Shown: positions 1 to 48,852 of the stretch, piece by piece | Numbering within the stretch: the first letter of the stretch is position 1 | How the letters are laid out: the number at the start of each line of letters is the position of its first letter | Origin: Octopus vulgaris | Taxonomy: Eukaryota | DNA: 64,000 nt | Assembly (NCBI GenBank): GCA_951406725.2 | Contig: OX597817.1 | Location: 29,884,001-29,948,000 of the forward strand | Direction: 5' to 3' | The notes under the pieces: model-generated | The model's database searches: none | Told to the model about the DNA's origin: nothing | Seen by the model: only the letters and a program-made list of their open reading frames with translations | Translations under genes and position numbers: made by a program

Positions 1-590
1 AAGTAGCTTGCTTACCAACCACATGGTTTCGGGTTCAGTCCCACTGCATAGCACCTTGGGCAAGTGTCTTCTACTATAGCCTCGGGCTGACCAAAGCCTT
101 GTGAGTGGATTTGGTAGGTGGAAACTGAAAGAAGCCCGTTGTATATATGTATAGATATTTCAATATATTTCACATTTCAATATGTGACCACGTGTGTATT
201 GTTGGCGATTTGCTTTCTCCATCTTCCCTTCCTTGGACCTTCCCTTTTCCTATGTTTCTGATGAAGAGCTCCACTCAAAACGTTAAATCTTCCTTCTTTC
301 TTTCCTTTCCTGAGCATTCAATATACTTGTTCCAAGTCCTTGCGTTGTTGTATTTTCACTTTGTTCATGTTTGGATTAACTATATGTGTGTGTGTGTGTA
401 TGCTTGTGTTTGTTCCCACAACATTGCTTGACAACCGATGCTGGTGTGTTTACGTTCGGCAAAAGAGACTGATAGAATAAGTACTAGGCTTACAAAGAAT
501 AAATCCTGGGGTTGATTTGCTCAACTAAAGGAAGTGCTCCAGCATGGCCACAGTCAAATAACTGAAACAAGTAAAAGAGTAAAGAGTAAA
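1..590 (+). mobile_element. tRNA-derived SINE, family A (5' end cut by window edge), with an insertion in its internal microsatellite
   Basis: Aligns to copies at 4351-4745 and 32800-33180. Box B-like gggttcagtccc, CORE-like accttgggcaagtg, tail ccagcatggccacagtcaaa..tgaaacaagtaaaagag. Confidence 0.85.
180..385 (+). mobile_element. PLE-like 3' end fragment with decayed HHR motif, nested in SINE
   Basis: Absent from the other family A copies. ttt-CTGATGA-A-gag.ctcca.ctc-AAAA-cgtt-aaa at 254-288, followed by tttcctgagc, resembles the PLE end at 47296-47420. Confidence 0.55.
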
Positions 591-1429
591 GAGAGTAACT
601 TTATACTGTAATTTTGAGGTAACACTCACTTAATAAACCTACTCTTCCACATTGGATTGACATGGCTTAGCAGAGAGATGAAGTTCACAGTCATACCCAT
701 ACTTTGTTAAATTCTTCGGCATCCAAACATGGGTGAGGAAAAGATCAAGCCATGGTTAGTGGAGAGAACGTGTTGAGGCCTTCATCCAGCAGCTGACTGA
801 ACATATGCAAGGAGGAGGAATGTACGTATGAATGTATGTATGTATACCATTATTTAGTTTTATTTCAAAATTTCTTACTAATAGAGAAAGAGCTGGTTTC
901 TAACCTAGATCCAAGGCTCCTTTATTGGAATTTCAACATCAACAACCGGGTATTTTTGTATGTTGTATGTATGTATGTATGTATGTATGTATGTATGTAT
1001 GTATGTATTTATGTATGTATGTATGTATGTATATATGTATATGTGCAGATTTGTGTGTTTTGTGTGTTTTCTTATGCATGTATTCTCATGCATATAGTTG
1101 CATGTCAAGACATGTACATATATACTTAAATAATAAACTTCTGGGAAGTTTCACAGATTTTTACAGTTCCACTAATGGCTTGGATCTGCAGTCTTTGAAT
1201 CAGCTTTCTCCTTTCTGCTTTTAAGAAGCCTAATTTCTCCAGATTGATACTTAGGGAGTGTGTTCCATATCCTGGTGCCGCAATAATTACAGGGCACTTG
1301 TAATCTGGGCAGAGTAACTGTAGATGTTTCAATAGTTCAGCATAGATATTTTCTTTTTTGCTGTTATTCAGCTTTATGTTAATATCTGCTGGGCATATGT
1401 ATGTAAGTATGTATGTATGTTCAGGTCAG

Positions 1430-1980
1430 GTCACTTTCGAGTGCTGCTGGTAACATGTAACCCAGTACTACCTGTTGCATGGTCGGGTCATCAGCGACTA
1501 AACCGGCAACCCCACCAAGCTCGCTTGGTGAGGAGGGTGTTTATTGGTCACCCTGCGGGATGAAAAACAAAACCCGTCAAAGGGCGGAGGAACTCTTGAG
1601 AATCAACGGCCATCCAATAAATGTCTTAAAGCTGTATCATGCACGGGGACATAGAAATAATCGGATTGAATACCCGATCGCGCAGTTAAACATTGGGAGT
1701 GAAGGACTCCTAGCCTTTGTCAGGGCATCCTTCTAGGAGATGATAACTCAAGTAACTGGGATAACTCCAACATAAAACCTGTGGCTCAGTGGTTACCGAT
1801 GATGTTGACTTGTTCTTCTTTTCGGATCATGCCTGCTGTTGTTTAGTGAGTGGGATTGACTCAGTGCACAGCCTTTCCTCACTTAAAAAAATATCTTCTT
1901 GCACAGGCATTGCATGATAACAACATTGATTAAGCTTCGTGCAATGGCCATACTCGATAACGAGGGGGCAGCCACCATGT
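1430..1980 (+). mobile_element. Probable RTE-related non-autonomous retroelement
   Basis: GC-richer block between (TATG)n tracts. Motifs ccggcaaccc and gggcatccttctaggagatgataactc recall RTE 5' regions (recognised from memory only). Confidence 0.35.
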
Positions 1981-2137
1981 ATGTATGTATGTATGTATGT
2001 ATTTATGTATGTATGTCATTATTCAGTTTAACTTCATGAGGAATAGAGAGGAAATGAACAAGAAATAAGGGAATTCAAATTTCACTATCTATGAGCTTGT
2101 AGTTTAATTATAAGCCATATGATATTTATCTATTCGA

Positions 2138-2350
2138 AAGGTAGTGAGCTAGCAGAAACGTCAGCACACTGGGTGAAATGCTTAGTGATATTTCGTCTGT
2201 CTTTATGTTCTGAGTTCAAATTCTGCGAAGGTCAACTTTGCCTTTCATCCTTTCAGGGTCCATAAATTAAGTACCAGTTGTGTACTTGGGTTGATCTAAC
2301 TGACTGGCTCCTTTCCCAAAAATTTTGGGCCTTGTGCCTAGAGATAGAAA
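2138..2350 (+). mobile_element. SINE family B (MetaSINE-like central domain)
   Basis: gagttcaaatt box B plus gcctttcatcctttcagggtc..aattaagtaccag. Related copies at 20650-20860 (+), 13880-13975, 17150-17340 and 30195-30355 (-). Confidence 0.75.
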
Positions 2351-46285: not shown

Positions 46286-47435
46286 TTGGCTGACCGGTTC
46301 GCGGAACACCTTCGTGACATCCACCTTGCGAACGACACACCGGTCTCACGCCATTTCCGCTCCACCGGTCACTCCTTGCAACACCTATCTGTGTTCGGTT
46401 TGTCCTTACACAGAGGCCATCCGGATTCCCGTTTGCGCCGTGAACAGGAATTAATCTTCTCTCTTCGCTCTTATACGCCATTTGGTCTCAACTCTCCCCC
46501 CTCCTCATCTAACCCCCTCTCCCCCTCCTCACCTATCCTTTCTCCCCCGACCCCTACTTCTTCAGTCCTTCATCCTTTCACCCCTACTCCCCTTCCCTTC
46601 TTCCCTCTTTCTCCCTCCCTCTTCCCCTTCCCTCTGCTCCCTCACTCCCTCTCTCCCCTTCTCTCTCCCCCTTCTCCTCCCCCTCTTCTTCCCCTCCCCT
46701 TCTCCCCCCTCTTCTCCCCCTCCCCCTCTTCTCCTCACTACACCACATGACTTTACACATCACATCACATATGATGTGCCATACTAATACACACACCAAC
46801 TAATACATACTAATACGTACTAATACATACTAGTACATACTAATACTTACACCAACCCTATACATACACACGTCCAGACCCGCATACGCACTTATATACT
46901 CTCTCACACACACACACAGACACCTATACATACCAATACGTACTAATACATACTAATACATACTAATACATACACCAACCCCATACATACGCACGTCCAG
47001 ACCAATCTTACGCACTAATACTCTCTCATACACACACACACACACACACACACACACATCCTTATACATACTAATACATACACCAACCCTATACATACAC
47101 ACATCCAGACCCCTCCCACGCACTTTTAGCTGGTCCCTCAACCCTTTTATCAACCCTATTATCTCCCCTTATTTCGCTCTCGCGTCTCATGTTTGATCTT
47201 TGACCTCTGGCCGAAATCAGATCGCCATGTTGATTCGTTAGCTACTGCACGCATTTTTTTCTCTCCTTCTTTCTGTGTTTTTCTCTCTCTGTGTATCTTT
47301 CTGTTGAAGAGCGTAGGCTCGAAACGTTAAAGACTTGTTTTATTTATATTTCCTGAGCGCCATACTAATACAATTGTTCGTTTGTTTTCCACCTGCCTTC
47401 GTCTTTTGTTTATTTTCATAAAGCCTCCCGTTATA
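46286..47435 (+). mobile_element. 5'-truncated Penelope-like element: GIY-YIG endonuclease C-terminus, 3' region and HHR-like end
   Basis: [32 protein letters not shown] (46286-46492) fits PLE EN C-termini. tcttt-CTGTTGA-A-gagc.gtag.gctc-GAAA-cgtt-aaaga at 47296-47333. Confidence 0.85.
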
Positions 47436-48277
47436 TATACACACACATATATATACACATCTACAATTTGTATCTACACTCACATACATGCACATACACA
47501 TAACTCTACATACCTACATATACATCGACATACTCGCGTACACTCATATATATACACATATGTACATATACACACACACATACATATACATATACATATA
47601 TATATTTATAAATATATACATAATACACATATACACACACATACATATATATATATATACACACACACACACACATACATATATATATACATATATATAT
47701 ATACATATACATACATACACATATACATACATGTACATATACATATACATACATATATATACACACACATACATATATCAACAATTGAGGGTAAAGTTAA
47801 TTAGTTATTAATCAATTTCACCAAGTATTCAGTATGTAAAAGGACCATTATTTTTATGAGTAAACAATGTCTGAGGGAAAATATTCTCTAAGTAGTGGAA
47901 GAGGCTAAAAAACTTTTTTTGCTGCTATTTCTAGAAAGTTCAGTCTGTGGCAAAGTAATTTATTTTACTAAGCCCTAATTATATAATATTTTATGCATAC
48001 ATACACATACATACACACATACATATACACATACATATGCATACACACATATATACATATATACATATATACATATATACATATATACACACACACACAC
48101 ATATATTTTTTTATAATTTTTATTTTTTTATTTATTCTTCTATCTAATTTAACACTGACTCCTTGACCACTTCCCCAAGTATGATATTTTGCGCTATGCC
48201 TACCCCCAAAAAGTCCCCCACCAACACCCCTTTAAACCTGCCTAAATGTATAAATGCCAATACAATTCTTGTTAACT

Positions 48278-48328
48278 AGCTTCCTGAAGATTTCTCTTGA
48301 ATGAAACAGTTCTAGTCCTGTAGAAGCT
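48278..48328 (+). ncRNA. Type I HHR able to fold as a monomer
   Basis: agcttc-CTGAAGA-tttc.tctt.gaat-GAAA-cag.ttctagtc.ctg-TA-gaagct. GUA site at 48322. Confidence 0.75.
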
Positions 48329-48584
48329 CCTTTTATATAATAAATATATATATATATATATATATATATATATATATATATATATATATATATATATATA
48401 TATATATATATATATATATATATATATATATATATATATATATATATATATATATATATATATATATATATATATATATATATATATATATATATATATA
48501 TATATATATATATATATATATATATTACGGAGATGTACTCGCATATCAAGTAATTTGATCTGAGATCGTGTGCTGAAACGAAAA

Positions 48585-48852
48585 CAGCGTGGAAGGTGTT
48601 TATAAGCCATTTAAGAAAGACACAAAAGCCGTTCGATTCACTTCAACATTTAAGTGTAATTTGTCAAAATATTTTCGTCGCTAAAATCCGCGACCTGTTC
48701 ACTGACAAAGTCCGATGCAGCACGGACTTCGTCAGTGAACAGGTCGCGGATTTTAGCGACGAAAATATTTTGACAAATTAAACTTAAATGTTGAAGTGAA
48801 TCGAACGGCTTTTGTGTGTTTCTTAAATGGCTTATAAACACCTTCCACGCTG
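48585..48852. repeat. Near-perfect palindrome (~130-bp arms, 8-nt loop), each arm with an HHR-like G3-C8 motif
   Basis: cagcgtggaagg..aagtccg atgcagca cggactt..ccttccacgctg. Motif gtca-GTGAACA-G-gtcgc..gcgac-GAAA-atat-TT-tgac at 48731-48774. Confidence 0.9.

What the first reader, a model, noticed from the sequence alone, without database searches (positions are those of the whole stretch)
254..48774. Several distinct hammerhead families in one window, sampling three pairings at positions 3-8
Seen: motifs at 254, 12548 (-), 27681, 33552, 33908, four in 41-42 kb, 43091, 43822 (-), 47296, 48278 and two near 48.7 kb, plus half motifs at 12970 and ~42440. C3-G8, U3-A8 and G3-C8 all occur. Most have palindromic stem III (AACGTT, ACATATGT, ACCATGGT, ACAGCTGT, AATATT, ACGATCGT) and lie in elements bounded by (TA)n. 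Inference: a PLE/retrozyme system that targets TA microsatellites, implying a very high genome-wide ribozyme load.
Basis: partly seen in the sequence, partly recalled or inferred. Interest (0 to 1): 0.75.

Follow-up and report, generated by a model that had tools for sequence, protein, structure and literature searches.

The report
Penelope-end hammerheads with altered cores
The ribozyme-like motifs are real and lie at the ends of several young Penelope-type jumping genes and of one non-coding repeat family that insert into TA repeats, a known kind of system; the unusual part is that very common families carry fixed changes in the catalytic core that likely make them slow cutters, which is untested.

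Summary
Observation confirmed: all 15 full and 2 half motifs are at the stated places and exceed shuffles (strict descriptor 4 vs 0.02). They belong to seven families: 3' ends of two Neptune and three Hydra-type Penelope-like elements (PLEs; upstream ORFs found), one ORF-less 356/360-bp tandem retrozyme, and one unassigned truncated family. (TA)n is a true target: 3' ends abut it far above the 3.75% background, 12-13-bp site duplications occur, and a paralogous segment has empty (TA)n at two insertion sites. PLE hammerheads, U3-A8, palindromic stem III, (TA)n bias, tails and inversions are all published, and this scan noted such fields, G3-C8 and A6U before on other DNA. The window is about 5-fold denser than random genome samples; estimated load 30,000-85,000 motifs. 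What stands out: family-wide non-canonical cores: A6U (21,191 exact-pattern hits, U6 in 94 of the first 100, including a Neptune family with intact ORFs), U4C (62 of the first 100 retrozyme hits) and G3-C8 (1,987 hits). Motif load therefore overstates active-ribozyme load. Cleavage was not tested; 5' ends of one family do not pile up at the cut site.

The parts
254..288 (+). Decayed type I hammerhead of the older, A6-bearing (3-nt loop II) branch of family A; G12A and a broken stem II pair
12449..12630 (-). 5'-truncated 3' end of Neptune family A; hammerhead motif 12585-12548 with A6U core
12918..13190 (+). 5'-truncated copy of family G with short inverted arm; only the 3' half of the hammerhead (GAAA at 12970) is left; autonomous partner not identified
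   Evidence: full motif in L034
25446..27800 (+). 5'-truncated Hydra-type PLE family C with long simple-repeat-rich 3' region; hammerhead 27681-27758 (C3-G8, 50-nt stem II region, imperfect closing pair)
33526..34135 (+). Retrozyme family B1, 1.7 units of 356 bp; hammerheads 33563-33606 and 33919-33962 (U3-A8, extended stem I with UAC bulge, loop II CAAUUA); ends at end1 into (TA)n
40824..42392 (.). Retrozyme family B2: 2.5 units (-) plus 1.8 units (+) of 360 bp, head to head, one arm ending at end2, the other at end1; four hammerheads (41084-41039, 41444-41399, 41815-41860, 42175-42220) with U4C; absent from the paralogous segment
42407..42492 (+). 5'-truncated family C end (half motif, GAAA at 42448)
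42548..43385 (.). Hydra-type PLE family D: short inverted arm with ~175-nt tail plus + arm; hammerhead 43091-43201 (canonical core, long hairpin stem II, 3-bp stem I)
43737..48345 (.). Hydra-type PLE family E, head-to-head insertion: long (-) arm with ~65-nt tail and hammerhead 43872-43822, short (+) arm with hammerhead 48278-48328 (monomeric stem III, U.U at 10.1-11.1); most of the CA/TA-rich DNA in 44-46 kb and 47.4-48.1 kb is element DNA; absent from the paralogous segment
46286..47432 (+). 5'-truncated Neptune family A copy nested in the E insertion: GIY-YIG C-terminus 46286-46495, 3' UTR, hammerhead 47296-47333 with A6U
48527..48857 (.). Fold-back insertion of Neptune family F: two arms each with a G3-C8 hammerhead (48709-48660 and 48731-48774), ~60-nt tail on the left arm only

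Best explanation
The motifs are type I hammerhead sequences in the 3' repeats of at least five young Penelope-like retrotransposon families (two Neptune, three Hydra-type) and in one ORF-less tandem retrozyme family, all inserted into (TA)n or AT-rich DNA, likely by PLE reverse transcriptase-endonuclease proteins that would copy mostly uncut RNA from two fixed internal start sites. Shown here: upstream ORFs, fixed 3' ends, tails, head-to-head arms, 12-13-bp duplications, empty paralogous sites, family-wide cores. Inferred from the Anolis PLE biochemistry (PMC11167929): staggered nicking of both strands, reverse transcription from two adjacent sites (giving one tailed and one untailed arm), and ribozyme cleavage not being required for insertion. 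Inferred: because cleavage is optional or needs the protein, very successful lineages tolerate weak cores (A6U, U4C, G3-C8) while keeping the rest of the fold; the retrozyme would borrow the same enzymes in trans.
For: ORFs: family A lies 3' of a 1,079-aa RT + GIY-YIG ORF with CSRPRCRTC linker, in tandem pLTR-ORF-pLTR units; 150 of 150 scored genomic hits are 100% identical to the window's 70-aa EN peptide. F lies 3' of a second CxxC-linker/GIY-YIG ORF (L317, L325). E and D lie 3' of ORFs with CxCX5C linker and CxxC/CxH around E/N, C 3' of a related ORF, matching the Hydra definition (PMC8557442 section 11). Ends within 10 nt of (TA)4: A 48/53, C 15/17, D 17/20, E 13/13 and 12/12, F 35/53 and 34/45, B 19/23 and 11/23 vs 3.75% background; misses include internal read-through copies that were not dropped. 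Two ends ~43-175 nt apart in B, C, D, E, F; B: 13 of 17 inverted insertions pair end1 with end2; E: one tail in each of 7 inverted pairs seen whole. Non-simple duplications in 10 of 31 F fold-backs vs mean 1.1, max 4, in 200 mispairings; six are 12-13 bp; 12 bp in B loci L006, L015. A 97.8% paralog lacks B2 and E(+A), with (TA)n at both sites. Selection on the fold: B shows double changes at 3-8 (UA/CG), stem I.4 and Imid.1; in 13 random family-A copies U4, G5, G8, A9 are invariant and C3 12/13 while N7 is free. F 5' ends: 0 of 30 within 1 nt of the predicted cut, 9 of 30 at -56 to -61, upstream of the intact motif.
Against: No cleavage or RNA-end data. The selection signal in family A is modest: 58% of flank columns are also conserved in 12/13 copies, 33% invariant, and no pair covaries within that family. 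No autonomous partner was found for B or G. Family A shows essentially one end (51 of 65 contexts in one 5-nt bin), not two. Loci for B, C, D, E and the first F set were best-hit samples, not random. Longer arrays in the U4C lineage hold against exact-match counts (p 5e-6) but not against the BLAST-based U3-A8 set (p 0.13). F 5'-end calls are rough for diverged copies.
Confidence: 0.8

Rival explanations
1. The variant cores are dead ribozymes that hitch-hike: once cleavage became dispensable, a founder mutation (A6U, U4C) spread with a successful master lineage, and remaining conservation is shared ancestry or a non-catalytic RNA structure bound by the PLE protein.
For: A6 and U4 changes lower activity in vitro (PMC3088659 section 8 and Discussion passage); hammerhead mutants did not impair PLE insertion in vitro (PMC11167929); no covariation inside family A; F copies carry uncut motifs.
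Against: U6 is held across subfamilies whose flanks are 73-100% (median 81%) identical and whose N7 takes all four bases, with C3/U4/G5/G8 at 97-100 of 100; B keeps 3-8 pairing through a double change; U4C supports viroid infectivity and C3G/G8C partly rescues a PLE hammerhead (PMC3088659, PMC11167929).
Confidence: 0.4
2. All motifs are active ribozymes that cut precursors into monomers which circularise and are reverse-transcribed round the circle, as proposed for retrozymes and PLEs; the genome then carries tens of thousands of active ribozymes.
For: B is a head-to-tail 356/360-nt repeat with a full-size stem I, and its monomer folds far better than shuffles (z -5.4); arrays up to 11 units; circles are shown for coral, mussel and axolotl retrozymes (PMC7229834 passages).
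Against: No canonical core among the first 100 B hits; 94 of 100 family-A hits have A6U; PLE minimal hammerheads cut slowly in vitro (PMC4209133); most copies are solo 5'-truncated ends without a dimer partner.
Confidence: 0.25
3. The motifs are chance matches in AT-rich, repeat-rich DNA, or the fold-back at 48.7 kb is a MITE (DNA transposon).
For: Rfam finds nothing at gathering score; the 48.7-kb element is nearly a perfect palindrome.
Against: Excess over local shuffles; reversed-pattern controls 0 vs thousands of hits; F has asymmetric ends, 11 centre-junction types in 30 loci, 12-13-bp rather than 2-bp duplications and copies attached to a GIY-YIG ORF.
Confidence: 0.03

Closest known systems
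Minimal type I hammerheads in PLE pseudo-LTRs (Cervera and de la Pena 2014, PMC4209133; read parts 1-2 of 4, supplement file 2 part 1 of 3 and search passages)
   Same: Type I, short stem I, palindromic stem III, extra base after A9, U3-A8 covariation, many families per genome, mostly solo 5'-truncated copies, opposite-strand pairs.
   Different: Family-wide A6U, U4C and G3-C8 cores were not in the parts read; load here about 11-30 per Mb vs ~9,000 motifs reported for Xenopus tropicalis.
Neptune and Hydra PLE clades, e.g. Hydra-1_Obim (Craig et al. 2021, PMC8557442; passages, section 11, supplement rows)
   Same: C-terminal GIY-YIG; CX2-5CxxC (Neptune) or CxCX5C (Hydra) linker; (TA)n preference; tandem and inverted arms; optional tail; hammerhead near the 3' end.
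   Different: Tails here ~43-175 nt rather than 30-40; long simple-repeat-rich 3' UTRs; 12-13-bp duplications could be read in F and B, where the paper could often not discern them.
Animal non-LTR retrozymes (PMC7229834 passages; bioRxiv 10.64898/2026.07.22.740005 parts 1-3 of 5, its supplements closed)
   Same: ORF-less 356/360-bp head-to-tail repeats, one full-size type I hammerhead per unit, self-paired monomer, PLE dependence proposed.
   Different: Family B shows the PLE integration signature itself (two fixed ends, head-to-head arms, 12-bp duplication, empty (TA)n site), whereas those texts argue from co-occurrence and homology; dominant core is U4C.
Poseidon PLE of Anolis carolinensis (Frangieh et al. 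2024, PMC11167929; parts 1-2 of 4)
   Same: Two internal RT start sites give the tail; both strands nicked in AT-rich DNA; hammerhead protein-assisted and dispensable for insertion; C3G/G8C partly active.
   Different: Different clade; G3-C8 there is engineered, here it is the natural state of ~2,000 copies.

Membership tests
Type I hammerhead ribozyme | Three helices around CUGANGA / GAAA / NUH in type I order | tested here: met
   helices and order present in all 15 full motifs
Type I hammerhead ribozyme | Invariant core bases U4, G5, A6, A9, G12, A13, A14 with a 3-8 pair | tested here: not met
   met in 8 of 15 (B1 x2, C, D, E x2, F x2); not met in A x2 (A6U), B2 x4 (U4C), 258 (G12A)
Type I hammerhead ribozyme | Compensatory changes in helices | tested here: inconclusive
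   double changes in B (3-8, I.4, Imid.1) come from two or three lineages; none in family A
Type I hammerhead ribozyme | Self-cleavage 3' of H17 | not testable with these tools
   no raw-read RNA data obtained
Neptune PLE (families A, F) | Single ORF with telomerase-like RT and C-terminal GIY-YIG | tested here: met
   A: RVT_1 E 1.4e-7, GIY-YIG E 0.0065 (below its cut-off) in 1,079-aa ORF; F: RT thumb to GIY-YIG in L317/L325
Neptune PLE (families A, F) | CX2-5CxxC linker before the endonuclease | tested here: met
   CSRPRCRTC and CNRPNCGIC
Neptune PLE (families A, F) | Placement in an RT phylogeny with Neptune references | not tested
   no tree built; clade named from motifs
Hydra PLE (families C, D, E) | CxCX5C linker, CxxC and CxH around E/N of the endonuclease, no CCHH | tested here: met
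   E (L294) and D (L304); C (L296) by similarity to E, E 1e-16 and tblastn over RT to EN, motifs not read individually
Hydra PLE (families C, D, E) | Insertion into (TA)n and canonical hammerhead | tested here: met
PLE (all) | Tandem or inverted pseudo-LTRs with optional tail | tested here: met
   family A shows tandems and inversions but one dominant end
Animal non-LTR retrozyme (family B) | Head-to-tail repeats of 150-450 bp, one type I hammerhead per unit, no ORF | tested here: met
   356/360 bp, up to 11 units; tblastn with Neptune and Hydra proteins hits 3 B loci only outside the arrays
Animal non-LTR retrozyme (family B) | Expressed as self-cleaved, circular RNA | not testable with these tools
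   only contigs of runs not on record as RNA were available; fold stability z -5.4 is prediction only
Non-circularly permuted (type-SGC) hammerhead | Core parts in scrambled order | tested here: not met
   the two half motifs have full type I homologs; no scan of the window for scrambled motifs was run

The most novel reading that the evidence does not exclude
The most successful ribozyme-bearing elements of this genome have each fixed a different attenuating core change (A6U in about 20,000 Neptune ends, U4C in most retrozyme units, G3-C8 in about 2,000 ends) and keep the rest of the fold under selection, because a slow, protein-gated cut preserves the uncut or multimeric RNA that PLE proteins use as template; the ORF-less retrozyme is inserted by those proteins from two internal start sites. 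This would give natural, high-copy test cases for what PLE hammerheads do and widen the accepted hammerhead core.
Probability: 0.35. Interest if true: 0.65.

Novelty: new variant of a known kind. Interest (0 to 1): 0.42.

Why it matters
The role of hammerheads in PLEs is open (PMC8557442, PMC11167929). This genome offers sister lineages that differ at one core base (A6 vs U6 in family A; U3-A8, U3.G8 and C3-G8/U4C in family B) and are all recently mobile, so cleavage rate can be set directly against transposition success. Standard descriptors miss the A6U, U4C and G3-C8 motifs, so published hammerhead counts for such genomes would be low. The empty-site paralog and 12-13-bp duplications give clean evidence of (TA)n targeting, and the retrozyme's tail/inversion pattern supports the proposed PLE dependence. 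As a system it is known, and this scan has recorded it repeatedly in this genome.

Tried and rejected
Rfam: no hammerhead; one search's top 150 were microsatellite-driven miRNA matches. DNA search of G000 with family A found nothing because its words are too common; exact patterns worked instead. RNA evidence: no RNA holder listed; contigs of four runs guessed to be RNA cover family B only in pieces and cannot show ends or circles, so nothing is concluded; splicing or RNA ends at the Neptune pLTR-ORF junction remain unexamined. The idea that the window's E and A motifs are two ribozymes of one element was rejected: full-length A copies lack E and A is nested. MITE reading of F rejected. Pile-up of 5' ends at the cut site tested in F: absent; in B none of 11 direct insertions starts at the cut. 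Array length vs core type in B: not robust. In one search one pair of my structure string was misplaced (helix 4), so its overall paired percentage is not used. Literature searches for natural variants: 'hammerhead'+'G3-C8' 1 paper, engineered; 'hammerhead'+'A6U' 2 listed, on other RNAs by title, not opened; 'hammerhead'+'U4C' 4 listed, viroid case known; 'C3G'+'G8C' 2, engineered; 'hammerhead'+'Penelope'+'octopus' 4 listed. Lunse et al. 2017 on PLE hammerhead variants, Przybilski and Hammann 2007 and Ambros and Flores 1998 are not held and were seen only as references, so A6U or G3-C8 may be in print there; supplement file 1 of PMC4209133 and bioRxiv supplements could not be seen.
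Full report
Setting. The window is G000:C4:29884001-29948000 of a 2.8-Gb genome in 227 contigs, 32% GC and rich in simple repeats. It looks octopus-like (SINE recognised from recall; proteins resemble the published Hydra-1_Obim by eye); I did not pin it to an assembly. The only long coding region is a Helitron (35765-39471), unrelated to the motifs.

Observation. All 15 full motifs and both half motifs are present. A strict type I descriptor (3-8 Watson-Crick, stems I and II at least 4 bp) gives 4 hits vs 0.02 in 50 local shuffles; a one-defect descriptor gives 9 vs 0-1 in 10 shuffles; together they recover 10 of the 15. 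The three 3-8 pairings are as stated. Seven of 15 break the invariant core: 258 (G12A, decayed), 12580 and 47301 (A6U), and the four 41-42 kb copies (U4C plus U.U at 10.1-11.1). Rfam gives no hammerhead.

Families. A (258, 12580, 47301) is the 3' repeat of a Neptune-type PLE: a GIY-YIG C-terminus lies upstream at 46286-46495; 150 of 150 scored genomic hits are identical to that peptide, of 5,623 candidates; ten long copies show ORFs of 1,036-1,200 codons, seven with the repeat on both sides, with RT, GIY-YIG and a CX2-5CxxC linker. F (48.7 kb) joins a second such ORF in 2 of 30 loci. E (43866/48284), D (43094) and C (27685, half at 42448) lie 3' of Hydra-type ORFs (definition in PMC8557442 section 11). 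B (33569/33925 and 41-42 kb, 82% identical) is an ORF-less 356/360-bp tandem with a full-size stem I, i.e. a non-LTR retrozyme. G (12970) is a truncated ordinary type I family. Families B-F are young: best hits 90-100% identical.

Targeting. 3' ends lie within 10 nt of (TA)4 in A 48/53, C 15/17, D 17/20, E 13/13 and 12/12, F 35/53 and 34/45, B 19/23 and 11/23 unique contexts, against 3.75% for random positions; misses include read-through copies that are not ends and were kept. (TA)n is a target, not only a tail: 10 of 31 F fold-backs have non-simple direct repeats on both flanks (six of 12-13 bp) vs mean 1.1 in 200 mispairings, B has 12-bp duplications in L006 and L015, and a 97.8% paralog of this region on C4 lacks the B2 array and the whole E insertion with its nested A, showing (TA)n at both places, while carrying another U3-A8 hammerhead element in a neighbouring run. 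B, C, D, E and F have two fixed ends about 43, 70, 175, 65 and 60 nt apart; A has one main end. Head-to-head insertions pair one tailed and one untailed arm in 13 of 17 B cases and 7 of 7 complete E pairs.

Load. In 80 random 10-kb stretches (18 large contigs, positions drawn below lengths known at the time) the strict descriptor gives 10 hits vs 1.2 shuffled, the relaxed 23 vs 3 and 1: about 31,000 (13,000-60,000) and 74,000 (44,000-114,000) genome-wide, 84,000 for the union; intervals are Poisson and too narrow because hits cluster. The window is about 5-fold denser. About 20 distinct families appear in all fetched loci. Published counts seen: about 9,000 (Xenopus), 4,000 (coelacanth), over 6,000 (coral), 5,000 (mussel), 120,000 (axolotl) (PMC4209133, PMC7229834).

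Variant cores. A pattern leaving positions 3-8 free has 21,191 exact hits (control 0); in the first 100 listed position 6 is U in 94, A in 4, C in 2, while C3 is 100, U4 97, G5 99, G8 98 and N7 takes all four bases (counted by eye). In the random sample 11 of 13 copies of this branch have U6 and 7 of 7 of the sister branch have A6. Conservation is only modestly above flanks (33% of flank columns invariant) and no pair covaries. For B, 2,161 hits; first 100: 62 U4C with C3-G8, 21 U3.G8, 17 U3-A8, none canonical; double changes at 3-8 and in stem I. For F, 1,987 exact G3-C8 hits, kept across loop II variants.

Mechanism. Shown: anatomy, ends, duplications, empty sites. From the Anolis PLE work (PMC11167929, parts 1-2 read): the protein nicks both strands of AT-rich DNA, starts reverse transcription at two adjacent internal sites (the tail), uses mostly uncut RNA, and its hammerhead is protein-assisted, dispensable for insertion and partly active as C3G/G8C. 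My data fit: 0 of 30 F copies start within 1 nt of the cut, and 9 of 30 start 56-61 nt upstream with the motif whole. I infer that the same chemistry inserts all families, that B borrows it in trans, and that weak cores are tolerated or favoured. Whether they are slow or dead is open (about even odds).

Known or new. PLE hammerheads, U3-A8, the base after A9 and palindromic stem III are in PMC4209133; (TA)n bias, tails and inversions in PMC8557442; the retrozyme-PLE link in PMC7229834 and bioRxiv 10.64898/2026.07.22.740005; U4C (viroid), A6C and U.U at 10.1-11.1 in PMC3088659. Natural family-wide A6U or G3-C8 was not found in searches, but the main paper on PLE hammerhead variants (Lunse 2017) could not be read. 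Earlier notes of this scan report the same fields, G3-C8 in this genome and A6U in another; they are unchecked and not counted as support. Verdict: real, a known kind of system, with high-copy core variants worth a bench test; interest 0.42.

Noticed in passing
window 34146-39471: Helitron with Rep (PF14214) and PIF1 helicase (PF05970) ORFs, starting right after the B1 array's TA run.
   Followed up: partly
window 31321-43741 and 48527-49400 vs G000:C4:153.59-153.605 Mb: Inverted segmental duplication, 97.8% identical, differing by presence or absence of hammerhead elements in TA runs.
   Followed up: yes
L317, L324, L325 (family F, about 25 nt upstream of the core): A branch-point, pyrimidine tract and AG, resembling a 3' splice acceptor, lies exactly where short F copies begin; an intron ending at stem I is reported for Drosophila Penelope (PMC4209133). 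Could mark the RNA's 5' end.
   Followed up: no
window 47350-47362 and homologs (alignment A1): A conserved block downstream of the family-A cut site can pair with the 3' strand of stem II in both branches; a possible off-switch fold.
   Followed up: no
window 25446-27800, 43737-48345: Hydra-type elements carry 2-3 kb of CA/TA/TATG-rich sequence inside their 3' regions, so much of the apparent microsatellite DNA is element cargo.
   Followed up: partly
L157, L162, L168, L169: Both arms of F fold-backs share private base changes, as expected if both are copied from one template or homogenised later.
   Followed up: partly
window 33779-33822: In one search many short contigs match only the B tail segment and run on into unlike sequence, hinting at tail-only remnants or another family sharing the tail.
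   Followed up: no
window 17381-19217, 50207-51550, 55388-64000, 5736-6249: Minisatellites of 39, 22/28, 21 and 171 bp; not checked for ribozymes beyond the descriptor scans.
   Followed up: no
window 48982-49245 (-): 3' fragment of a LINE-like element between TA runs; its CUGAAGA is not part of a hammerhead.
   Followed up: no
window 15702 (-): Weak A3-U8 descriptor hit with a 100-nt stem II region; probably chance.
   Followed up: no
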